A DNA stretch of 64,000 bases, taken from an uncultured Gammaproteobacteria bacterium (GTDB lineage: Bacteria; Patescibacteriota; Patescibacteriia; Magasanikbacterales; GWA2-37-8). The stretch spans positions 121,474 through 185,473 of the forward strand of contig CAZBWU010000001.1 of assembly GCA_964496095.1 (NCBI GenBank), written 5' to 3'. The first letter of the stretch is position 1. Every line of letters starts with the position of its first letter. A program made the position numbers and the translations under genes. Below the pieces are notes generated by a model that worked only from the letters and a program-made list of their open reading frames with translations, was not told the origin of the DNA and ran no database searches. Positions 27,157 through 55,452 of this stretch are shown in pieces.

Positions 27157-27238
27157 GCCGAAGTGGCGGAATTGGTAGACGCACACGACTCAAAATCGTG
27201 CGGAGAAATCCATGAGAGTTCGATTCTCTCCTTCGGCA
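27157..27238 (+). tRNA. tRNA-Leu (anticodon CAA), long variable arm, CCA not encoded
   Basis: Acceptor GCCGAAG/CTTCGGC, anticodon stem CACGA/TCGTG, loop CTCAAAA, T-arm GAGAGTTCGATTCTCTC. Confidence 0.9.
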
Positions 27239-27325
27239 CATTAAAAATTTGACATGAGTATGGCTACATGATACAGTTTTAATAGTATGATAATGACTGT
27301 CCAACAAAACTTTGCTTACTATTTT

Positions 27326-27400: not shown

Positions 27401-27426
27401 TTTTACACAGTTTGTTCTTTACAAAA

Positions 27427-27770
27427 GGTCAGGGCGGTCGCCGGCAAGAGTAGAAAAAGTTTTTCTTTTCTTGCTGGCGACCTCCCTGCCAATGAGTGGG
27501 AGGAGAAAGGGTGGGGCATATGCCCTCCGTTGATCCGACTGTCACTCCTCCGATTGCTGAGCAGCCGGAGGGGCCTACTCCCTCCACGTCTGCTTCTAGT
27601 CCTTCTGGCAGCGACCCCCAGAGAGAGGCTGTGTCTTCGCCTCCGCAAGCTGACAAGCTCGCGGGCGGTAACTGGGGCAAGAAGCCTAGCCTAGGTTGGT
27701 AGAGATGACCAGGCAGGCGCGAGGGCCGCCCTGACCGAGATTCGGTTGGGGCGGCCGCTTTTATTTTAAA
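27427..27770. other. GC-rich (~62%) island bounded by 11-bp inverted repeats GGTCAGGGCGG/CCGCCCTGACC, with terminal GC hairpin + T-run; contains a 60-codon Pro/Ser-rich ORF with Shine-Dalgarno
   Basis: Composition shift versus AT-rich flanks; inverted repeats at 27427-27437 and 27727-27737. Confidence 0.5.
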
Positions 27771-29717: not shown

Positions 29718-30467
29718 ATGGTCAAGGAGTTGATTAAAATAGATCGCCTGAGCAAAGTATTTACTGATTCAAGCGGGCGCGAAACAAGAGTTATAAATGA
29801 AATCACCTTCAATATAAATGAAGGTGATTTCATAACTATATTTGGGCCTAACGGTTCAGGTAAGACCACATTACTGAATATTATTGCTAAGTTGGAAACG
29901 TTCACAGGTGGCGATATGGTTTATAGTAAATCCAATTTTAAGATTGGGTATGTCTTTCAAAATTATGATGAGTCGTTACTTCCTTGGAGAACGGTTGAAG
30001 AAAATATTGAGCTTCCTTTGGAAAAAGGTTTATACTCCGAACAGGAAATTACCGAACAAGTAAATAGAGTTATTAATCTTTTGAATTTAGAAAAATATAG
30101 GCAAAAGTATCCTTATATGCTTTCAGGGGGGAAAAAACAATTGACTGCGTTAGCTCGTACATTAGTGATCGAACCCGACCTTTTATTAATGGATGAACCG
30201 TTTTCTTCTTTGGATTTTGATACGACTGTAGAAATGGAACAGTTACTGTTGGATATTTGGGCGAAATTAAATATGACTATTCTATTTGTGTCTCACAACA
30301 TTGATGAAGCAATACTTTTAGCTGACAGAGTGTTAATCTTGTCACATAAATCTTCTATAGAAAATGTTGAAGTAAAACTTGATAGGCCGAGGAATCACGA
30401 TATGTTAGTTTCACAAAATTTTGTGGATATAAAAAAAGAAGTCATAGTCAAATATGGTAGAAGATAA
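29718..30467 (+). CDS. ABC transporter ATP-binding protein, NitT/TauT family
   Basis: GPNGSGKTTLL, LSGGKKQ, LLLMDEP. Confidence 0.85.
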   Translation: MVKELIKIDRLSKVFTDSSGRETRVINEITFNINEGDFITIFGPNGSGKTTLLNIIAKLETFTGGDMVYSKSNFKIGYVFQNYDESLLPWRTVEENIELPLEKGLYSEQEITEQVNRVINLLNLEKYRQKYPYMLSGGKKQLTALARTLVIEPDLLLMDEPFSSLDFDTTVEMEQLLLDIWAKLNMTILFVSHNIDEAILLADRVLILSHKSSIENVEVKLDRPRNHDMLVSQNFVDIKKEVIVKYGRR

Positions 30468-31212
30468 TCATAAACAATCCTTAGCTGAAGGCCCATTACT
30501 GATATTGGTAGTTTGGATTATTATTACAAATTTTGGGTTGATAAACCCTCTTTTTTTACCAACCCCACAAAAGGTTGCTGTTTCTCTAATTGATTCTATA
30601 TCTAATATCGATATTTGGCGTGACTTGGGCCTTACTCTTTATAGGGCTTTTATGGCTTTGGCTTTAGGTGGGATTGTGGGGGTGCCACTTGGTTTATTAA
30701 TGGGTTATTTTGATCGCTTTTATAAATTTTCTGAGTTTATCATTGAGTTTTTTAGGGCCACACCAGCCACAGCATTATTTCCGTTATTTTTATTGTTATT
30801 TGGTATTGGTGATTTGGCAAAAATAGCGCTTGTGTTCTGGGCTGTTGTTTTTATAATAATTATTCATTCTATTTATGGGGTGCGTTTAGGCAAACGCTCA
30901 CGTTACCGCGTAGCGAAAATAATGAGGTTCTCAGGCTTTCTGCTTTTTAAAAAGTTTATTTTTCCTGAAGCCCTACCTCAGATTTTAGTTGGTCTGCGAA
31001 TTGCCATGTCTAATTCTTTAGTAATTGTGGTGGTGATGGAAATGTTTATCGGTACCAAATTTGGCCTGGGTAAAAGAATTATTGATTCGCAAATGGTCTA
31101 TAGAATACCAGACATGTATGCGACTATACTACTGGTGGGTAGTGTCGGTTATCTTTTGAATCAGTTATTCAGTAAAGTAGAGAAAAGAATTGTCCATTGG
31201 TCGGGTAGGTAA
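30454..31212 (+). CDS. ABC transporter permease, NitT/TauT family (BPD_transp_1)
   Basis: 6 TM; EAA-like loop. Confidence 0.8.
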   Translation: MVEDNHKQSLAEGPLLILVVWIIITNFGLINPLFLPTPQKVAVSLIDSISNIDIWRDLGLTLYRAFMALALGGIVGVPLGLLMGYFDRFYKFSEFIIEFFRATPATALFPLFLLLFGIGDLAKIALVFWAVVFIIIIHSIYGVRLGKRSRYRVAKIMRFSGFLLFKKFIFPEALPQILVGLRIAMSNSLVIVVVMEMFIGTKFGLGKRIIDSQMVYRIPDMYATILLVGSVGYLLNQLFSKVEKRIVHWSGR

Positions 31213-31246
31213 ACAATTTAACTCTCTATAGAATAGGTGATTAATC

Positions 31247-31300
31247 CTCATTGATGCAATTTTCAATGAGTTTTTTTATTTTTCAGCTTGTGGTATAATA
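31247..31300 (+). promoter_or_regulatory. Terminator hairpin CTCATTGA...TCAATGAG + T-run, then extended -10 promoter TGgTATAAT for parA
   Basis: Read directly; identical TTGTGGTATAAT promoter string recurs at 44551-44564. Confidence 0.55.
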
Positions 31301-31358
31301 TTCTCGTCTAGATTTATTCTGATGAAGATTTATTTTATAGTTAGAATTTTCAAAGTTT

Positions 31359-32126
31359 ATGGCTGAAATAATCGCCGTGGTAAACCAAAAAGGCGGGGTA
31401 GGGAAGACTACCACCGCCGTCAATCTAGCCGCAGCTTTGGCTGAAAGCGGTAAGTTTGTGTTACTTGTTGATTTGGATCCTCAAGGTAATGCTACTTCTG
31501 GATTGGGAATAAAGTATCAAGAATTAGAACAAGGTTTGTATCATAGTTTGTCTGGACAGGTTAGACTTCACGATGTCGTACTTAATACCGCCCATGCGGG
31601 TCTGCGCGTGGCACCAGCAACACCTGATTTGGCAGGGGCTAATGTAGAGCTGGTGAGTGTTGAAAATCGTGAGCGAAAACTACATGGGATTTTGTCTGAA
31701 GTAGCCCATGCTTATGATTATATTATTATAGATTGTCCGCCGTCCCTTGGAATTCTTACTCTCAACGGGCTGATTGCTGCTGACCATATTCTTATTCCCG
31801 TGCAGGCCGAATATTATGCTTTGGAAGGGTTGGGGCAACTGCTCAAAACCATAGAGATGATTCGAGTAAATTTAAAACCAGAATTAAAAATTTTGGGAGC
31901 AGTGCTGACTATGTATGATTCACGTAATAGCTTATCAGCTGAAGTTATGGATGAGCTTTATAAATTTTTCCCTGACAGTATCTTTCGATCAGTTATTCCT
32001 CGCACTGTACGATTGGCAGAGGCGCCAAGTTTTGGGAAAAGTATTTTTCATTATGACGCTAGTGGTAAAGCCGCTAAGGCATATGAGAGGCTGGGCCGAG
32101 AATTTTTGGATAGGTTTGAACAATAA
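31359..32126 (+). CDS. parA: Chromosome partitioning ATPase ParA/Soj
   Basis: KGGVGKTTT deviant Walker A. Confidence 0.93.
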   Translation: MAEIIAVVNQKGGVGKTTTAVNLAAALAESGKFVLLVDLDPQGNATSGLGIKYQELEQGLYHSLSGQVRLHDVVLNTAHAGLRVAPATPDLAGANVELVSVENRERKLHGILSEVAHAYDYIIIDCPPSLGILTLNGLIAADHILIPVQAEYYALEGLGQLLKTIEMIRVNLKPELKILGAVLTMYDSRNSLSAEVMDELYKFFPDSIFRSVIPRTVRLAEAPSFGKSIFHYDASGKAAKAYERLGREFLDRFEQ

Positions 32127-32127
32127 T

Positions 32128-32221
32128 CAATTGTCATCGCGAGGCCAAAGGCCGTGGCGATCCCATAGTATGGTAGTGGAACCATGAGATTGCTTCGTCG
32201 CTAGCTCCTCGCAATGACACA
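32128..32221. repeat. Palindromic element with TGTCAT-type terminal inverted repeats (AATTGTCATCGCGAGG...CCTCGCAATGACACAATT)
   Basis: Read directly. Confidence 0.5.
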
Positions 32222-32246
32222 ATTTTTAAACTTGTAACTTATTAAT

Positions 32247-33092
32247 ATGGCTTTAGGTAAAGGACTCGGCGCCTTGATAGCAGGTGCGCCAAAACAATAC
32301 AGATCAGAAACTCCAGCTTCTAACGATGGTCAAGAGCGAATTTGGCATATTCCGGTAACAGCTATATCTCCTGGTGCCAATCAGCCCCGTAAAAGTTTCA
32401 CTACTCCCGAGCTAGATGATTTGGCTGCTTCCATAAAAGAACACGGCATCCTGCAGCCGTTAATTGTGACCGAAAGCATTGATGGTGGTTATGAGCTTAT
32501 TGCCGGTGAAAGGCGATGGCGAGCGGCGCAACAAGTAGGCCTGGCGACAGTGCCAGCGATTATAAAAAAATTAGCTGATCGTCAAAAGTTAGAGATAGCT
32601 TTGATAGAAAATATTCAACGAGAAAATTTAACTCCGATCGAAGAAGCGTTTGCCTACCAGCGTTTGATGGAAGAATTTTCTTTGACTCAACAAGAAGTGT
32701 CAGAGAAGGTTGGCAAGAGTCGTCCGGCTGTAGCCAACACTATTCGATTGCTCAGTTTACCAGCAGAAGTACAAGCCGCTCTGACAGATAAAAGAATTAA
32801 TATGAGTCAGGCACGCGCTTTATTGTCTTTAGAAAATCAAAAACAGCAACTGGATATGCTGTCTTCGATGCTAGGGCAACGCATTACCGTGCGAGAGCTT
32901 GAGAGAAATGTTAGTATTAAAAATCCTGCCAAGAGTCATCGCGATCCAAACCTGGCTTATCTAGAAGACGAACTTCGTACAGCTTTAGGGACCAAAGTTT
33001 CAATTACCAAAAAAGGGGAGAGGGGTACAATTCTTATTGATTTTTATTCAGGAGAAGAATTGAATAGACTGATTAAAAAAATTACTGAATAA
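32247..33092 (+). CDS. parB: Chromosome partitioning protein ParB/Spo0J
   Basis: GERRWRAAQ motif, HTH. Confidence 0.93.
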   Translation: MALGKGLGALIAGAPKQYRSETPASNDGQERIWHIPVTAISPGANQPRKSFTTPELDDLAASIKEHGILQPLIVTESIDGGYELIAGERRWRAAQQVGLATVPAIIKKLADRQKLEIALIENIQRENLTPIEEAFAYQRLMEEFSLTQQEVSEKVGKSRPAVANTIRLLSLPAEVQAALTDKRINMSQARALLSLENQKQQLDMLSSMLGQRITVRELERNVSIKNPAKSHRDPNLAYLEDELRTALGTKVSITKKGERGTILIDFYSGEELNRLIKKITE

Positions 33093-33102
33093 ATAAAATT
33101 GT

Positions 33103-33168
33103 CATGCTGAATTTATTTCAGCATCCCACAGAATTCTAGAGATCCTGAAACAAGTTCAGGATGACACC
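33103..33168. repeat. TGTCAT...ATGACA palindromic element with two inner hairpins (ATGCTGAAatttaTTTCAGCAT; ATCCTGAAacaagTTCAGGAT) between convergent parB and relA
   Basis: Read directly; probable bidirectional terminator. Confidence 0.55.
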
Positions 33169-33173
33169 ACCTT

Positions 33174-34676
33174 TTATTTTTTTGATCTCGGAAGAATAAT
33201 GCTAAGCCATTTATTTTTTTGAGTCTTTAATTTTTCTTTTATTTTTGATTTTGCCTGATGAGTTTTGGCATATTTAATCCAATCCTGACTTGGACCCTTG
33301 CGGTTTTTATCGGTAGTAATTTCCACGACGTCGCCGTTTTTTAAGGGTGTATTAAGGCTGACCAATTGGTCGTTAATTTTGGCACCGTTGCATTGGTTGC
33401 CAATGTCCGTATGAATATGATAAGCAAAATCAATCGGGGTAGCGTCTTCCGGCAAATCAATGACGTCCCCTTGGGGGGTAAAGACAAAAATTCGGTTTTT
33501 GAAAAAATCTACTTTTAATTCATCAATGTCTGATAATTTTCCGAGCAAATTTTTTTGAATTTCAGCGAGTTCTTTGGCCCAGAAAATATCGCGCGAAGGC
33601 AAGCGGGAACCTTTTTCATCGTAATGCCAATGAGCAGCAATACCATACTCAGCTTCATCGTGCATAGACTTGTCGCGAATCTGAAATTCCACAATTTGAC
33701 CCTCGTTGCAAAATACGGTGGTATGTAGTGACTGATAGCCATTGGGCTTTGGTTGGGAAATATAATCTTTGATGCGCCCTTTTAAGGGTTTCCAAAGTTT
33801 ATGGATAATGCCTAGCGTCGCGTAGCAGTCAGCCATATTTTTGACAATAATGCGAACAGCGATGACATCATAAATTTGGGCGGTATTTTCCCAGCCGCCT
33901 TTGCTGAGAATTTTTTGGTATAAACTATATAATGTTTTGACGCGGCCATGCACGCTGACTGCTTCAATTTCAGCGGTTACTAATTCTTTTTTTAACGTAT
34001 CCATGACAGTTTCCAAATAAGCACTCCGTTGGGTGACCAAGGCTTCTCGCAGGGTTTTTGTTTTTTCGTATTCTTTTGGAAAAATATAAGGAAACGACAG
34101 GTCTTCCAACAAGCTTTTGAATTCACCAATGCCCAAGCGTCCGGCAATCGGCGCATAGATTTCTAAGCTTTCCAGAGCAATACGGTGTTGCTTTTTGGGA
34201 GGGAGAGAATTAAGGGTAGATAAATTATGAACTCGGTCGGCAAATTTGATAATCATTACTCTGATGTCTTCGGCCATAGCCACAAACATTTTGCGAAGGT
34301 TTTCGATATAGCGCTCAACGCCCCGATATTTTAATTTTCCAAGCTTGGTAATACGTCTAATCATGCCGGCGATGTCTGGGCCGAAATTTTTTTCAATTTC
34401 TTCAAGGGTAACATTGGTGTCTTCGGGTACGTCATGGAGAAGGGCAGCGACAATAATATTTGGATCAATACGCATGCGCGCCAAAATCATTGCCGTAGCC
34501 ACTGGGTGAACTATGTATGGTTCGCCGGATTGGCGGAATTGACCACGATGGGCTTTTTCCGCGAATTCATAAGCGAGCTGAACCATATCAGTGTCTTCTT
34601 GGCGGTAATATTTTTTTATTTGCGCCATCAAGTCCTCGATATTTGGTTTTGTAGGAATGATATCTTTGTAAGGCAT
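33174..34676 (-). CDS. (p)ppGpp synthetase/hydrolase RelA/SpoT homolog (HD + synthetase + TGS; short, no ACT)
   Basis: HD motif HDVPEDT; synthetase domain; TGS near C-terminus. Confidence 0.9.
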   Translation of the reverse strand: MPYKDIIPTKPNIEDLMAQIKKYYRQEDTDMVQLAYEFAEKAHRGQFRQSGEPYIVHPVATAMILARMRIDPNIIVAALLHDVPEDTNVTLEEIEKNFGPDIAGMIRRITKLGKLKYRGVERYIENLRKMFVAMAEDIRVMIIKFADRVHNLSTLNSLPPKKQHRIALESLEIYAPIAGRLGIGEFKSLLEDLSFPYIFPKEYEKTKTLREALVTQRSAYLETVMDTLKKELVTAEIEAVSVHGRVKTLYSLYQKILSKGGWENTAQIYDVIAVRIIVKNMADCYATLGIIHKLWKPLKGRIKDYISQPKPNGYQSLHTTVFCNEGQIVEFQIRDKSMHDEAEYGIAAHWHYDEKGSRLPSRDIFWAKELAEIQKNLLGKLSDIDELKVDFFKNRIFVFTPQGDVIDLPEDATPIDFAYHIHTDIGNQCNGAKINDQLVSLNTPLKNGDVVEITTDKNRKGPSQDWIKYAKTHQAKSKIKEKLKTQKNKWLSIILPRSKK

Positions 34677-34830
34677 AGTAATTAAATTTTATCCTATTTT
34701 TTTGATTAAGGCAATTACCATTGACATTCTGTCTCCTTTGTGGTAAGGTGCGCCCCGACCCATCTAGCCCGGCATATCGCTGGAGGATGAGGGGTCATCT
34801 CACCAGTTCCGTTACTCGTCGGAGGATTCC

Positions 34831-35187
34831 ATGAACCGCTTCGGTGGTCTCTCGTTCGTCACCCTCGTCACCCTCGCCATCACCGCCTGCACCGAGTCCG
34901 CCGACATCGAGTCGGCGCCGGTCATCACCGATCCGCACGGCCGCGAGGCGGCCGTCGTGGACATCAGCGAGCTGGACCTCGACATGCGGGCGATCGCGAC
35001 CGATCTGGTCGATGAGGTCAGCACGACGCCGCCGCCCAGCGGCGGCGTCATCGAGAAGGGGTGCCGCTGGCTGGAGCTCGATTTCCTCGGTTGCGCGGTG
35101 TCGGTCGGCGCCTGCTTCATCCCGAGCTCCTTCGAGCCGGGCTGGTCGGTGGCGGTGCTCGTCACCGAGCCCTACTGCGAGCCCTAG
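34831..35187 (+). CDS. Putative lipoprotein of foreign (high-GC, actinobacterial-like) codon usage inside a ~560-bp ~68% GC island
   Basis: GGAGG 7 nt upstream; lipobox LAITAC; GC3 near 90% versus ~25% in neighbours; GGGCttcGCCC hairpin after stop; overlapping ORFs in other frames are composition artefacts. Confidence 0.55.
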   Translation: MNRFGGLSFVTLVTLAITACTESADIESAPVITDPHGREAAVVDISELDLDMRAIATDLVDEVSTTPPPSGGVIEKGCRWLELDFLGCAVSVGACFIPSSFEPGWSVAVLVTEPYCEP

Positions 35188-35412
35188 CGGGCTTCGGCCC
35201 CTGGGAGGTCACCGGCGGGTGCCTCGACCGGTCCCCTGCCCGCGGACGTAGAGCCGCGGAGAGGCGCAGCCGTTCACGCGCTGCCGCCTGGTCGTTCGTT
35301 GTCGCGTAATGTTTATAAATTATTTGTAGATATTACCCGAACGATCAGGATTTTTTTAAAAAACACTGCTTAGTAATAGGCGGTGTTTTTAATATGTATG
35401 AATTAATAAATA

Positions 35413-35445
35413 AAAATCCTAGATTTTAATCTAGGATTTTTATAG
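35413..35445 (-). terminator. gyrA terminator: perfect hairpin AAAATCCTAGAT-ttta-ATCTAGGATTTT
   Basis: Read directly; second hairpin at 35358-35390. Confidence 0.6.
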
Positions 35446-35459
35446 TTTTTTTGATTATA

Positions 35460-37922
35460 TTATATGAGCGTCACACTTGCCACCTTGTCACCTTCTTCCT
35501 TAAATCTCATCAGGCGCACGCCTTGAGTAGCTCGGCCAGAAGTGGAGATAGAGGTAAATGGTAAGCGGATGACTTGGCCTTTGGCAGACATCAAGAGCAA
35601 ATCTTTTTCCTTCATTTCTACCGCGTCTACGACTTTGGCAAAAGTCAGGTTGCCGGTCTTGGCGGTAATTTCCGCGGTTTTAATACCGCTACCACCACGT
35701 CCCTGCACTTTATATTCATCAAGTTCAGTACGTTTACCGACACCATTTTCACCAACGGTTAGAAAAGCTAAGCTCTTATTTTTTGGATCAACGATGTCCA
35801 TACCAATTACTTCGTCACCACTCTTGAGGCGCATACCGCGAACACCGCTAGCTGTGCGTCCCATTTCGCGGACATCTTTTTCTTTGAAACGGATTGCCTG
35901 GCCTTGTTTGGTAGCTACCATGACTTCGTCGTTGCCAGTTGTTGGTTTGACCCATTCCAAGTTATCGTCTGGTTTGAGCTTGATAGCAATGAGGCCGCTA
36001 CGGCGAACATTGGCAAAGTCTGATAAGTTGGTTTTTTTGATATTGCCCCTGGTGGTAGTCATCATCAAGTATTTTATATTTGTCAGATCGCTCATACCAA
36101 GGAGGGCTGTTACTTTTTCATTTGGCGCTAATTGCAAGAAGTTAATGAGTGCTTGCCCTTTGGCAGTACGACTAGCTTGAGGAATGTCATAGGCCATAAG
36201 TTGGAAGACACGTCCACGATTGGTAAAGAAGAGCATGTTGTCGTGGGTGTTGGTTGAGACCAAATTCTGCACGCTTTCTTCTTCTTTGGTATTGGTACCA
36301 ATCACGCCCTTGCCACCACGAGATTGTTGGTGGAAAGTATCTGGAGGTAGGCGTTTGATATAGCCATCGGAAGTGACCATGACAATGGTCGCTTCATTGG
36401 GGATAAGATCTTCGGTGGTAAATTCTTTAATACCATGAGAAATAATCTGGGTGCGTCTTGGTTGGCCGTATTTTTCTTTGATAGCCAAAGTTTCATCTTT
36501 GATAATTTTTAGTATTCTAGCTTTGGAAGCGAGGATTGATTCAAGTTCTTTGATAAGCGCTCTTTTTTCTTTTAATTCATCTTCAATTTTTTGTCTTTCC
36601 AAATTGGCGAGTTGTTGTAATTTCATTTCCAAGATGGCAGTAGCTTGTCTGTCGGAAAATTTAAATTTAGAAATCAAATTTGCTTTGGCTTCTTCTTTGT
36701 CTTTGGAAGCGCGAATAGTTTTGATAATTAAATCAATTTTATCAAGCGCCATACTCAAGCCTTCCAAGATATGAGCGCGGTCCTGAGCTTTGGCTAAATC
36801 ATATTCAGTACGACGGCGAATGATAACTTGGCGATGTTTGATAAACTCTTCTAAAATATTTTTGATGGTCAGTACGCGTGGTTGGATACCATCAACAAGC
36901 GCCAACATGTTGAAGTGGAAAGTAGTTTGGAGTTCGGTCATCTGGAACAATTTGTTCAGCACTTTCTTTGGGTAAGCATCTTTTTTGAGATCAATTACAA
37001 CACGCACGCCGTCTTTGTTGGATTCGTCGCGCAAGTCTTTGATGCCTTCGATTTTTTTCTCTTGCACCAAGTCCGCGATTTTTTCTATAAGAGTGGCTTT
37101 ATTGGTATTATATGGAACTTCAGTAATAATAATTTTAAATTGATCAGCTTTGCCTTCTTGGATTTCGGCTTTGGCGCGCATGACAATACCGCCACGTCCA
37201 GTGGAGTAGGCAGTGAGAATGTCTTTTTTATTATAAATAATACCGCCGGTAGGGAAGTCTGGGCCTTGGATAAGGGTAGCCAGTTCTTCAATAGAGGTTT
37301 CAGGGTCATCAATTATCTTGGCCAAACCATTACATAACTCAGTAAGGTTGTGAGGGGCAATAGAAGTAGCCATACCAACCGCAATACCCATGGTACCGTT
37401 GAGGAGTAGGTTAGGAAGTTTGGCTGGCAAGATGGCTGGTTCGGTATGGGAACCGTCGTAGTTGGGGGTAAAAGCCACAGTGTCCTTATCAATATCAAAT
37501 AACATTTCTTCAGCCACAGCCGTTAGTTTGGCTTCGGTATAACGCATAGCAGCGGCGTTGTCGCCATCCATAGAACCAAAGTTTCCTTGACCATGCACCA
37601 GAGGATAGCGCATAGAAAAATCTTGCGCCATACGTACCATGGCATCATAGATAGAAGCATCGCCGTGAGGGTGGTACTTGGCCATCACTTCACCGACTAC
37701 GTGCGCGGATTTGCGGAATCTGGCAGTGTGTCGTAAACCAATATCCCACATGGCATAGAGAACACGACGGTGAACAGGTTTGAGACCATCACGGACATCT
37801 GGTAAAGCGCGAGAGACAATAACACTCATCGCATATTCCAAATACGAGGTCTGCATTTCTTGTACAAGTGAGGCTGGGGTGATGATGCCAATTTCTTGAG
37901 GGGGGATTAGTTTTTCTTGCAT
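35460..37922 (-). CDS. gyrA: DNA gyrase subunit A
   Basis: EMQTSYLEYAMSVIVSRALPDVRDGLKPVHRR; active-site region; C-terminal beta-pinwheel repeats. Confidence 0.97.
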   Translation of the reverse strand: MQEKLIPPQEIGIITPASLVQEMQTSYLEYAMSVIVSRALPDVRDGLKPVHRRVLYAMWDIGLRHTARFRKSAHVVGEVMAKYHPHGDASIYDAMVRMAQDFSMRYPLVHGQGNFGSMDGDNAAAMRYTEAKLTAVAEEMLFDIDKDTVAFTPNYDGSHTEPAILPAKLPNLLLNGTMGIAVGMATSIAPHNLTELCNGLAKIIDDPETSIEELATLIQGPDFPTGGIIYNKKDILTAYSTGRGGIVMRAKAEIQEGKADQFKIIITEVPYNTNKATLIEKIADLVQEKKIEGIKDLRDESNKDGVRVVIDLKKDAYPKKVLNKLFQMTELQTTFHFNMLALVDGIQPRVLTIKNILEEFIKHRQVIIRRRTEYDLAKAQDRAHILEGLSMALDKIDLIIKTIRASKDKEEAKANLISKFKFSDRQATAILEMKLQQLANLERQKIEDELKEKRALIKELESILASKARILKIIKDETLAIKEKYGQPRRTQIISHGIKEFTTEDLIPNEATIVMVTSDGYIKRLPPDTFHQQSRGGKGVIGTNTKEEESVQNLVSTNTHDNMLFFTNRGRVFQLMAYDIPQASRTAKGQALINFLQLAPNEKVTALLGMSDLTNIKYLMMTTTRGNIKKTNLSDFANVRRSGLIAIKLKPDDNLEWVKPTTGNDEVMVATKQGQAIRFKEKDVREMGRTASGVRGMRLKSGDEVIGMDIVDPKNKSLAFLTVGENGVGKRTELDEYKVQGRGGSGIKTAEITAKTGNLTFAKVVDAVEMKEKDLLLMSAKGQVIRLPFTSISTSGRATQGVRLMRFKEEGDKVASVTLI

Positions 37923-54954: not shown

Positions 54955-55022
54955 CCGAACGTTCATCACCAATGCCCCTGTTGGAGGGGAAGAAAGAAAA
55001 AAGGGAGGGGGTGATATATCAA

Positions 55023-55340
55023 ATGAGCAAAGACGAAAAGCTGGACTATCCGGCCGAATTCGTCGCGGCAGTCGCGGCTGAGTGGCCGCCACCCAACGAC
55101 AAGGTGATACCTGGGAGGTTGGCTGAAGGAGACCCGAAGATCGGGGCGCTTCTTGCCCAAGCTTCAGAGGATCCTTTCACGCCCCAAGAGGTCGTCAAGT
55201 TCTTGGAGGCAGGTCAGGGGGCAGATCTCCTGAGTCAAGCTCAGCGGAGAATCCGGCTGGGCAAGCTCTTCGAGCAGTGGTTGAAGATCGTTCAGCCATC
55301 AACACCATCACCTCGTCGGTCTCGTCGTCGCGCTCGGTAG
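55023..55340 (+). CDS. Hypothetical 105-aa protein with Arg-rich C-terminus, in a ~58% GC island (54955-55430) of atypical codon usage
   Basis: GGAGGGGG Shine-Dalgarno before ATG; composition shift; GTCAGCggagcgatGCTGAC hairpin after stop. Confidence 0.45.
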   Translation: MSKDEKLDYPAEFVAAVAAEWPPPNDKVIPGRLAEGDPKIGALLAQASEDPFTPQEVVKFLEAGQGADLLSQAQRRIRLGKLFEQWLKIVQPSTPSPRRSRRRAR

Positions 55341-55452
55341 GATGATGTCAGCGGAGCGATGCTGACGGCCAGGCACAAAGCCCAGGGCGCCGTCGCTCCG
55401 GCCCCGCATTATCCTTATCAATACTGGTAATGATAATCTAGGGCCTAAATTT

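What the first reader, a model, noticed from the sequence alone, without database searches (positions are those of the whole stretch)
34745..35305. Island of ~68% GC carrying an intact actinobacterial-style lipoprotein gene
A ~560-bp block between relA/spoT and gyrA contrasts sharply with its ~35% GC surroundings. It contains a 118-codon ORF with GGAGG Shine-Dalgarno, a lipobox (LAITAC), GC3 near 90%, a TTGACA-N17-TAAGGT promoter at the junction, and a GC tetraloop hairpin after the stop. This is either a recent lateral transfer from a high-GC donor or a chimeric or contaminating assembly join.
Basis: partly seen in the sequence, partly recalled or inferred. Interest (0 to 1): 0.7.

Follow-up and report, generated by a model that had tools for sequence, protein, structure and literature searches.

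The report
Foreign high-GC lipoprotein gene cassette
A real, strain-specific insertion of about 690 bases, not an assembly error, sits between gyrA and relA of a low-GC Candidatus Magasanikbacteria genome and carries one orphan gene for a small predicted surface lipoprotein, at a spot where related genomes hold other, unrelated high-GC genes.

Summary
Window 34750-35305 is 69% GC in a 38.8% GC window and carries a 118-codon ORF (GC by codon position 0.63/0.50/0.94) with a GGAGG ribosome-binding site and a lipoprotein signal peptide. It is not a chimera. An independent Logan assembly is 100% identical across both junctions. Two more assemblies from a diverged strain carry the same island at the same site (protein 92% identical). 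The closest species-level relatives have an empty gyrA-relA spacer of 85-113 nt, which sets the insert at about 34719-35409.

The ORF is an orphan. No donor or family was found in any protein, phage, plasmid, viral or metagenome search, so "actinobacterial" is unsupported.

Native genes here lack Shine-Dalgarno sites, but every GC-rich cassette has one. The 3' non-coding tail is 75% GC with no codon periodicity. Both points favour a foreign high-GC origin.

Between the two alleles the ORF has dS 0.023 and omega about 1.7. The flanking genes have dS about 0.47 and omega about 0.01. This indicates a recent allelic exchange and no detectable purifying selection on the protein.

Other Magasanikbacteria carry unrelated GC3-rich single-gene cassettes upstream of relA. 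One such family keeps GC3 at 0.84-0.94 inside AT-rich DNA across about 40% protein divergence. That is unexplained.

The parts
34719..35409 (+). Whole inserted unit relative to the empty gyrA-relA spacer of the closest relatives (about 690 nt)
   Evidence: Spacers of L003, L004, L007, L009, L010 and L016 are 84-98 nt. They share '...gattaaggcaa' with the window on the relA side and the gyrA terminator hairpin on the other side. Everything between is absent from them.
34721..34749 (+). Sigma-70-like promoter: -35 TTGACA (34721-34726), 17-nt spacer with extended -10 TG, -10 TAAGGT (34744-34749), in AT-rich DNA at the left junction
   Evidence: Read from the sequence. Both hexamers and the spacing are identical in L001/L002. 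The consensus scan does not list it because the -10 matches only 3 of 6. Function is inferred.
34750..34830 (+). GC-rich (62%) 5' leader with Shine-Dalgarno GGAGG at 34821-34825
   Evidence: 28% mismatches plus 18 gap columns against L001, which is about as diverged as silent sites of the flanking genes. The SD and its spacing are conserved. No fold signal (z = 0.0).
34831..35187 (+). ORF of 118 codons encoding a lipoprotein precursor. Signal peptide is residues 1-19, the lipobox Cys20 codon is 34888-34890, and the mature part is 99 aa with pI about 4.05 and five Cys including Cys20
   Evidence: GC1/2/3 = 0.63/0.50/0.94. It is the only ORF in the window that fits a strict lipoprotein signal pattern. 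It is intact with no indels in the second allele, which is 92% identical at the protein level. No family, structure or donor was found.
35188..35305 (+). Non-coding GC-rich 3' tail (75% GC)
   Evidence: No codon periodicity in any of the six frames (GC 0.68-0.79 at all positions). Against L001 there are 3.9% mismatches and one 14-nt indel that removes the small GGGC-TTCG-GCCC hairpin.
35287..35357 (+). Terminator-like stem-loop that bridges the GC/AT junction: arms 35287-35298 (CCTGGTCGTTCG) and 35338-35349 (CGAACGATCAGG), then T7 at 35351-35357
   Evidence: Inverted repeat I6, 12 nt, 92% complementary. It is present in the minimum-free-energy and centroid folds. The 3' region 35188-35400 folds with z = -6.0. 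Both arms are identical in L001/L002.
35359..35390 (.). Second hairpin flanked by A-run and T-run (AAAAACACTGCTTA / TAGGCGGTGTTTTT), terminator-like in both directions; part of the insert
   Evidence: Inverted repeat I5. Absent from empty-site relatives. Conserved in L001/L002.
35410..35443 (-). Native gyrA terminator hairpin, not part of the insert; marks the right edge of the insertion site
   Evidence: Called as a terminator on both strands. Empty-site relatives have a hairpin at the same position with a different stem sequence.

Best explanation
The feature is a genuine, strain-variable, single-gene accessory cassette. It resembles a phage 'moron': a promoter, one gene and a terminator, with composition unlike the neighbours. 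It is inserted into the gyrA-relA intergenic spacer of a Candidatus Magasanikbacteria (Patescibacteria/CPR) chromosome.

Its 556-bp core looks like a fragment of DNA that evolved under a high-GC regime. The core carries one complete small gene with its own Shine-Dalgarno site and 118 nt of non-coding 75% GC DNA.

Inferred mechanism: transcription starts at the TTGACA-N17-TAAGGT promoter at the left junction and stops at the stem-loop plus T7 at the right junction. The strong SD recruits ribosomes to a GC-rich mRNA in a host whose own genes do without SD. The 118-aa product is exported by Sec. It is diacylglyceryl-modified at Cys20 and cleaved by signal peptidase II. This leaves a 10.5-kDa acidic domain on the cell surface, with four further cysteines that could form two disulfides.

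The cassette was gained after this lineage split from its nearest species-level relatives and before the two sampled strains split. Its ORF and 3' part were later exchanged between strains by homologous recombination.

The function of the protein is not known. The most likely role is a dispensable, fast-evolving surface factor, for example in contact with the host cell or in exclusion of phages or competitors. That last step is inference only.

Shown: reality of the insertion, its limits, its foreign signature, orphan status, allele history. Inferred: transcription, export and lipidation, surface role.
For: Not an artefact:
- 100% identical Logan contig across both junctions.
- A diverged allele at the same site in two further runs.

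Insertion:
- The spacer is 783 nt here and 84-113 nt in the ten closest relatives with an empty site (relA 80-89% identical).

Coding:
- GC by codon position is 0.63/0.50/0.94, against 0.50/0.32/0.41 for relA.
- SD plus ATG, and the only strict lipoprotein signal in 64 kb.
- No indel in 357 nt of ORF, against about five indel events in 199 nt of flanking GC-rich non-coding DNA.

Foreign signature:
- 37 of 38 long ORFs in the window and 402 of 423 in related loci have no SD. All three GC-rich islands in the window and 8 of 8 GC3-rich ORFs in the window and related loci (one of them this island's ORF) have one.
- The 3' tail is 75% GC with no periodicity, so the GC-richness is not only a matter of codon choice.
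- The amino-acid make-up is of the high-GC type: 1 Lys and 1 Asn in 118 residues.

Own transcription signals.

Allele history: ORF dS 0.023 against 0.46-0.48 in relA and gyrA; the 5' leader is 28% diverged.

Hotspot: L006 and L017 carry different GC-richer genes in the same gyrA-relA spacer. L026, L034, L059, L046 and L076 carry others just upstream of relA.

Context: horizontal transfer into Patescibacteria is documented (PMC12455944).
Against: No donor or homologue was found anywhere.
- Word-indexed search of 5.8 billion protein clusters.
- Full HMMER scan of 1.84 billion representatives. Its only extra hit, P0002, is a repeat protein at 25% identity that conserves none of the cysteines.
- JGI metagenomes, IMG/VR, phages and plasmids.

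The protein shows no purifying selection between the two alleles: 10 non-synonymous against 2 synonymous changes, omega about 1.7. It may be neutral or decaying rather than functional.

If the cassette has sat in an AT-biased genome since before the two strains split (dS about 0.47), my simple two-state decay estimate predicts that GC3 should have fallen to about 0.75-0.8. It is 0.94.

The terminator stem pairs GC-block sequence with AT-rich sequence, and the promoter is AT-rich. A plain 'chunk of donor genome' does not explain either.

Whether the host has Lgt and LspA is unknown. Neither is in this window.

Confidence: 0.6

Rival explanations
1. The island belongs to a class of cassettes that is endogenous to Magasanikbacteria and related CPR bacteria. 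In this class the extreme GC3 is kept up inside low-GC genomes, or is continually re-imported from one unsampled high-GC reservoir such as the physical host. Possible in-genome causes are selection on the mRNA or on codons, or GC-biased conversion at a recombination hotspot. On this view it is not a one-off transfer that is on its way to amelioration.
For: The family of the L017 insert:
- It has 7 close relatives at 55-69% identity.
- All five close relatives' contigs examined (L095, L097-L100) hold a gene with GC3 0.88-0.94 flanked directly by 32-40% GC DNA, in at least three different gene contexts.
- GC1 and GC2 (0.55/0.37) are host-like.
- Third positions at conserved four-fold amino acids are only 60-65% identical, against 41-46% expected by chance. 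Silent sites have therefore largely turned over while GC3 stayed high.
- The AT-rich promoter and leader and the 3' element travel with the gene.

The window island itself keeps GC3 at 0.94 although its junctions are as old as dS of about 0.47.

In 680 kb of Magasanikbacteria loci there are 16 GC islands, and three lie in this window.

A recent recombination tract lies exactly over the GC-rich ORF.
Against: In the window island the GC-richness extends into non-coding DNA with no periodicity (75% GC), and the protein has a high-GC amino-acid make-up. Both fit a donor genome better than selection at codon level.

A distant member of the L017 family (P0010, 36% identity) has native GC3 of 0.44 but still has its SD. 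This looks like ordinary amelioration of an old transfer.

GC-biased conversion should also raise the GC of the AT-rich leaders, and it has not.

The window ORF shares no sequence with the other cassettes.
Confidence: 0.25
2. The block is foreign DNA that was captured and is now functionless. The frame is still open only because GC-rich DNA has few stop codons and the copy is young. Nothing useful is made from it.
For: Omega is about 1.7, and substitutions are spread evenly over codon positions (4/3/5). My estimate gives about a 9% chance per frame that 118 codons stay open in 69% GC DNA, and three overlapping ORFs of 82-135 aa exist. The gene is an orphan. The 5' leader is decaying, at 62% GC in the window and 54% in L001, mostly through strong-to-weak base changes. 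The gene caller skipped the ORF on L090.
Against: The promoter hexamers, the SD with its spacing, the start codon, the lipobox and the terminator stem are all intact in both alleles, although the leader between them has 28% mismatches and four indels. There is no indel in the ORF. Only 12 substitutions separate the alleles, so the omega estimate has little power. The ORF-containing tract was kept or spread by a recent exchange between strains.
Confidence: 0.12
3. Assembly chimera or contaminant join.
For: A sharp composition change at both edges and no homologue in low-GC genomes.
Against: Three Logan assemblies from two unrelated accession series reproduce both junctions. One is 100% identical. 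Two carry an allele in which island and flanks have both diverged. No match was found to any other contig.
Confidence: 0.01
4. The GC-rich block is a structured non-coding RNA, or another element that works at nucleotide level, and the ORF is incidental.
For: Sequence conservation in the ORF and 3' region is nearly uniform (about 97%) and ignores codon position. The whole 639-nt transcript folds with z = -6.2.
Against: The fold signal comes from the terminator region (z = -6.0). The GC core alone has z = -1.9 and the ORF halves -0.4 and -1.9. No Rfam family matches, even at E of 1 or less. The strong 3-base GC periodicity, SD and signal peptide are coding features. The one mismatch in the 11-bp internal hairpin is not compensated.
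Confidence: 0.02

Closest known systems
Phage 'morons': autonomous promoter-gene-terminator units inserted between two genes, with composition unlike their neighbours (from my own knowledge; Hendrix and colleagues)
   Same: A single gene with its own promoter and its own terminator, wedged between two unrelated genes. Its nucleotide composition differs sharply from both. It is present or absent between close relatives.
   Different: It is not in a prophage. The neighbours are gyrA and relA, and no phage gene is nearby. No phage or viral match was found.
Horizontally transferred genes and small genomic islands in Patescibacteria (PMC12455944)
   Same: Foreign-composition DNA in a streamlined CPR genome. 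The paper reports hundreds of islands and single-gene transfers, with an unrecovered donor named as a common limitation.
   Different: That work needs a recovered donor-recipient pair and finds mostly Patescibacteria-to-Patescibacteria transfers. Here no donor exists in any database, the unit is only about 690 nt, and it is much more GC-rich than the recipient, whereas acquired DNA is more often AT-richer.
Small phage- or plasmid-encoded surface lipoproteins that block superinfection (T5 Llp, phi80/N15 Cor, TP-J34 Ltp; recalled from memory, a lead only)
   Same: A small lipoprotein, made from an accessory gene with its own expression signals, that varies between strains.
   Different: No sequence or fold similarity was detected. 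No phage context. Function untested.
Integron gene cassettes, including single cassettes outside integrons
   Same: Single-gene units with a structured 3' element. Different cargo is found at one chromosomal position.
   Different: There are no R''/R' core sites (RYYYAAC / GTTRRRY) anywhere in 34700-35460. No integrase gene lies next to it (the neighbours are relA and gyrA). The cassette has its own promoter, whereas integron cassettes normally have none.

Membership tests
Bacterial lipoprotein precursor (Lgt/LspA substrate) | N-terminal signal peptide with a positively charged n-region and a hydrophobic h-region | tested here: met
   M-N-R then FGGLSFVTLVTLA.
Bacterial lipoprotein precursor (Lgt/LspA substrate) | Lipobox [LVI][ASTVI][GAS]C at the end of the h-region | tested here: met
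   I-T-A-C at residues 17-20. It is conserved in P0001.
Bacterial lipoprotein precursor (Lgt/LspA substrate) | The host encodes Lgt and signal peptidase II | not testable with these tools
   Motif scans found neither gene in the 64-kb window. The rest of the genome was not available.
Recent horizontal transfer from a high-GC donor | Absent from the closest relatives at the same site | tested here: met
   Empty spacers of 84-113 nt in L003, L004, L007-L012, L014 and L016.
Recent horizontal transfer from a high-GC donor | Composition and expression signals unlike the recipient, in non-coding DNA as well | tested here: met
   GC3 is 0.94 against 0.41-0.43 in the flanking genes. An SD is present, while 37 of 38 native genes have none. 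The 3' tail is 75% GC with no periodicity.
Recent horizontal transfer from a high-GC donor | An identifiable donor lineage or homologues in high-GC genomes | tested here: not met
   The only real hit is the same cassette in a sister strain. The 'actinobacterial' label has no support.
Recent horizontal transfer from a high-GC donor | The insertion is younger than the divergence of the strains that carry it | tested here: inconclusive
   ORF and 3' region have dS of 0.023. The leader, promoter and junctions are as diverged as flank silent sites (28% against pS of about 0.35).
Phage moron | Own promoter and own terminator around one gene | tested here: met
   By sequence only.
Phage moron | Located in a phage or prophage genome | tested here: not met
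   Housekeeping neighbours. No PHROG, phage or IMG/VR match.
Integron cassette | An attC site with R''/R' core sites, and an integrase or cassette array | tested here: not met
   No core sites. A single cassette with its own promoter.
Insertion sequence / MITE | Terminal inverted repeats, target-site duplication, multiple copies | tested here: not met
   No terminal repeats at the insert ends. The 12-nt direct repeat TTTTTTTGATTA lies outside the junctions defined by the empty sites. There is no second copy in the window or in about 100 loci.
Structured non-coding RNA | A match to a known family, or a fold clearly better than shuffled sequence with covariation | tested here: not met
   No Rfam hit. 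GC core z = -1.9.

The most novel reading that the evidence does not exclude
The island may be one example of an undescribed class of single-gene cassettes in Magasanikbacteria and related CPR bacteria.

Each cassette has this layout:
- an AT-rich consensus promoter and leader;
- a strong Shine-Dalgarno site, in genomes whose own genes have none;
- an orphan, fast-evolving ORF with GC3 of 0.8-0.94;
- a structured GC-rich 3' element followed by a terminator.

The cassettes land preferentially just upstream of relA. They keep their extreme GC3 for long periods inside 35-45% GC genomes.

This would need one of two things. Either a gene-specific force favours G/C at silent sites, or there is continuous re-import from one high-GC partner organism. 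In the second case the cassettes would be a genomic trace of the unknown host of these episymbionts.
Probability: 0.3. Interest if true: 0.75.

Novelty: new member of a known kind. Interest (0 to 1): 0.5.

Why it matters
CPR bacteria are mostly uncultured and are thought to live attached to other cells. Their hosts and their surface biology are largely unknown.

This is a verified cassette of foreign composition that encodes a predicted surface lipoprotein. It sits at a site where relatives carry other such cassettes. That gives a concrete handle on gene flow into these tiny genomes, and possibly on who they live with, if a donor can be found in the same samples.

It is also a caution for annotation. 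One gene caller skipped this ORF, so protein databases under-sample such cassettes.

The wider pattern, if it holds, would challenge the usual picture in which acquired genes drift toward the composition of the recipient. That pattern is SD-bearing, GC3-extreme genes that stay GC-rich in genomes without SD sites and with low GC.

Tried and rejected
Searches for relatives or a donor of the ORF found nothing beyond the sister-strain allele P0001:
- Pfam, NCBIfam, PHROGs, PADLOC;
- PDB sequences;
- 5.8-billion-cluster word search;
- HMMER against 1.84 billion representatives;
- JGI metagenomes by peptide patterns and by a degenerate KGCRWLEL DNA pattern, which gave 7 chance hits;
- IMG/VR;
- phage and plasmid collections by blastn and tblastn.

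P0002, a 1473-aa repeat protein, matched at E = 2e-10 over 12 repeats. I set it aside as a composition and repeat artefact: 25% identity, and none of the cysteines is conserved.

The non-coding RNA idea was rejected.

The integron, IS and MITE ideas were rejected.

The TTAC next to the left junction, which could suggest an IS200/IS605-type target, is not conserved in the other allele.

The other GC-rich cassettes were checked:
- They share no sequence with this one apart from the flanking genes and generic promoter and SD motifs.
- Their proteins have no family, except a weak holin/spanin-like PHROG hit for L059.
- The L034 lipoprotein is also an orphan.
- The L017 family and the third window island have no viral relatives.

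A literature search for the SRA run numbers found nothing, so the sample types remain unknown. A search for lipoprotein processing in Patescibacteria also found nothing useful.
Full report

Yes. Window 34745-35305 is 69.0% GC. The 64-kb window is 38.8% GC, and 150-nt windows have mean 0.388 and sd 0.063. The island peaks at 0.75 and is the most extreme stretch in the window.

It holds an ORF at 34831-35187 (+) of 118 codons. GGAGG lies 5 nt upstream of the ATG. The N-terminus, MNRFGGLSFVTLVTLAITA|C, fits the lipoprotein signal pattern, and it is the only ORF in the window that does.

GC by codon position is 0.63/0.50/0.94. For relA it is 0.50/0.32/0.41 and for gyrA 0.53/0.36/0.43.

An open frame of this length is not in itself remarkable in 69% GC DNA. 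I estimate about 9% per frame, and three other ORFs of 82-135 aa overlap it. The 3-base periodicity, the SD, the start codon and the signal peptide are what identify the coding frame.

The antisense 117-aa ORF shares its third positions with the sense frame. It is the usual by-product of a sense frame that avoids codons ending in A.

The TTGACA-N17-TAAGGT promoter (34721-34749, with a TG extended -10) is present. The small GGGC-TTCG-GCCC hairpin after the stop is weak, and a deletion removes it in the other allele.

The flanking genes are gyrA and a RelA/SpoT-family gene.

**2. Artefact or real insertion?**

The organism is a Candidatus Magasanikbacteria (CPR/Patescibacteria), judged from the closest relA loci among GTDB species representatives.

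A Logan assembly of run SRR10036080 is 100% identical to window 30174-36181, including both junctions. Logan assemblies of SRR25018343 and SRR25018341 carry a diverged allele of the same island between the same relA start and gyrA end. In these the protein is 92% identical and the flanking genes are 8% diverged.

A chimera or contaminant join is therefore excluded.

In the closest relatives (relA 80-89% identical: L003, L004, L007-L012, L014, L016) gyrA and relA are separated by only 84-113 nt. Aligning these empty sites sets the insert at about 34719-35409, roughly 690 nt. It consists of:
- an AT-rich promoter segment;
- the 556-nt GC block;
- an AT-rich 3' segment with its own hairpins.

The gyrA terminator hairpin (35410-35443) is native.

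**3. Anatomy and likely expression**

The order of parts is:
- promoter, 34721-34749;
- a 62% GC leader with the SD, 34750-34830;
- the ORF;
- a 75% GC tail with no codon periodicity in any frame, hence non-coding;
- a 12-bp stem whose 5' arm lies in the GC block (35287-35298) and whose 3' arm lies in the AT-rich part (35338-35349), followed by T7;
- a second hairpin, 35359-35390.

The 3' region folds far better than shuffled sequence (z = -6.0). The GC core does not (z = -1.9). No Rfam family matches. I therefore reject a structured-RNA reading.

Both promoter hexamers, the SD and its spacing, the lipobox and both terminator arms are identical in the second allele.

**4. A foreign signature beyond GC**

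The native genes of this genome do not use Shine-Dalgarno sites. In the window, 37 of 38 long ORFs lack one, even when every start in the first 40 codons is allowed. In the related loci, 402 of 423 lack one (that scan tested only the first in-frame start, which may understate SD use).

All three GC-elevated islands of the window have a strong SD. So do 8 of 8 GC3-rich ORFs found in the window and the related loci, one of which is this island's ORF.

Three features point to a GC-rich evolutionary background for this island, not merely unusual codon choice:
- the SD;
- the 75% GC non-coding tail;
- a protein with a high-GC amino-acid make-up (1 Lys and 1 Asn in 118 residues).

**5. What is the gene?**

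It is an orphan. No family matched in Pfam, NCBIfam, PHROGs or PADLOC, and no PDB sequence matched. There is no relative other than the sister allele among 5.8 billion clusters or 1.84 billion representatives. Nothing turned up in JGI metagenomes, IMG/VR, phages or plasmids.

The one extra HMMER hit, P0002, is a repeat protein at 25% identity that conserves none of the cysteines. I treat it as spurious.

"Actinobacterial" is therefore unsupported. One caveat applies: the gene caller did not call this ORF on the identical Logan contig, so protein databases may under-sample such genes.

**6. History of the two alleles**

| Region | dS | dN or omega | Notes |
|---|---|---|---|
| Island ORF | 0.023 | dN 0.039, omega about 1.7 | 2 synonymous, 10 non-synonymous; differences by codon position 4/3/5; 3 transitions, 9 transversions |
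| relA | 0.48 | omega 0.01 | flank |
| gyrA | 0.46 | omega about 0 | flank |

The region from about 34873 to the gyrA stop is only about 2.6% diverged, including its AT-rich non-coding parts. The 5' leader has 28% mismatches and four indels, which is about the level of silent sites in the flanks.

The simplest reading has three steps:
1. The cassette was already present when the two strains split.
2. The leader then diverged freely.
3. A later homologous exchange replaced the ORF and 3' part in one strain.

There is no sign of purifying selection on the protein, but 12 substitutions give little power. The ORF has no indels, whereas the flanking GC-rich non-coding DNA has about five indel events in 199 nt.

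One thing does not fit. If the ORF had spent the whole time since the split in this AT-biased genome, a simple two-state decay (my estimate) predicts GC3 of about 0.75-0.8. The observed value is 0.94.

**7. The wider pattern**

The spacer upstream of relA carries other, unrelated genes of raised GC in other Magasanikbacteria:
- L006 (119 aa, GC3 0.72) and L017 (259 aa, GC3 0.84), in the same gyrA-relA spacer;
- L026 (GC3 0.91), L059 (0.84) and L034 (0.82, also with a lipobox), in a topA-relA context for L026 and L034;
- L046 and L076.

Across 680 kb of such loci there are 16 GC islands, and 4 of them (strict count) lie directly upstream of relA. This suggests a hotspot. It is not a formal test, because all the loci were chosen around relA.

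The window itself has two more, milder islands with SD-bearing small ORFs, at 27420-27770 and 54976-55450.

The L017 gene has a family.
- All five close relatives' contigs I examined hold a gene with GC3 0.88-0.94 embedded directly in 32-40% GC DNA, in different gene contexts.
- GC1 and GC2 are host-like.
- Silent sites have turned over about two-thirds of the way to saturation.
- The AT-rich promoter and leader and the 3' element travel with the gene.
- A distant member, P0010, has native GC3 (0.44) but keeps its SD.

So some cassettes ameliorate, while others stay GC3-extreme across about 40% protein divergence. I cannot tell whether this reflects repeated import from an unsampled high-GC reservoir or a force acting inside the CPR genomes.

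**8. Verdict**

The finding is real and the chimera option is refuted. The best explanation is a moron-like accessory cassette of foreign, high-GC origin that encodes an orphan small lipoprotein. It sits at a variable site upstream of relA and has been exchanged between strains.

As a kind of thing it is known: a horizontally acquired gene islet. Transfer into Patescibacteria is documented (PMC12455944). I therefore rate it a new member of a known kind, with moderate interest.

Three points raise it above routine and define the novel reading:
- the contrast in Shine-Dalgarno use between cassettes and native genes;
- the recurrent site upstream of relA;
- the unexplained persistence of extreme GC3 in at least one cassette family.

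Noticed in passing
window 27420-27770: A second GC-elevated island (up to 65% GC) lies just downstream of tRNA-Leu (27157-27239). It is bracketed by GC-rich inverted repeats. It holds a 60-aa Pro/Ser-rich ORF (27520-27702) behind a strong SD (GGGAGGAG). No family match.
   Followed up: partly
window 54976-55450: A third GC-elevated island (up to 63% GC) lies between uvrC and an S1-domain gene. It holds a 105-aa ORF (55023-55340, GC3 0.62) behind a TTGACA-N17-TATAAA promoter, a long hairpin-containing leader and a very strong SD (GGGAGGGGGTGAT). No Pfam, PHROG, PADLOC or IMG/VR match.
   Followed up: partly
whole window and loci L003-L082: Native genes of these Magasanikbacteria almost never have a Shine-Dalgarno motif: 37 of 38 long ORFs in the window and 402 of 423 in related loci lack one. 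GC3-rich cassette ORFs always have one. Whether the 16S rRNA keeps an anti-SD could not be checked, because no rRNA is in the window.
   Followed up: partly
L017:3096-3875; L095:1207-2034; L097:73-900; L098:637-1464; L099:336-1163; L091:6001-6852: This is a family of 259-283-aa orphan proteins. Its close members are all genes with GC3 0.84-0.94 embedded in 32-40% GC DNA. They share an AT-rich promoter and leader and a conserved 65-nt GC-rich hairpin element after the stop codon. A distant member, in L091, has native GC3 of 0.44 but still has an AGGAGG SD.
   Followed up: partly
L004:5361-5760, L005:8281-8640, L006:8621-8920, L010:8181-9280, L011:7541-7860, L014:8221-8580: A second recurrent position for GC-rich islands lies about 3.5-5.3 kb downstream of the relA start in the close relatives. 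It holds large orphan ORFs, for example 472 aa in L010. The 460-aa ORF in L005 has a glycine-zipper membrane segment, as in some pore-forming toxins. The window has no island at the corresponding place.
   Followed up: no
L003, L004, L006, L007 and many others (record titles): Many GTDB representatives that are clearly Magasanikbacteria by relA and gyrA similarity and synteny carry the record title 'uncultured Gammaproteobacteria bacterium'. This looks like a mislabel in the deposited records.
   Followed up: no
L090:723-1505 (= window 34677-35459): The gene caller used for the Logan collection called no gene in the island on the contig identical to the window, although it did call the ORF on L001 and L002. 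Orphan high-GC ORFs in low-GC contigs may be systematically missing from protein databases.
   Followed up: no
window 34697-34708 and 35446-35457: A perfect 12-nt direct repeat, TTTTTTTGATTA, lies on either side of the spacer, 749 nt apart. It lies outside the junctions defined by the empty sites, so it is probably not a target-site duplication.
   Followed up: yes
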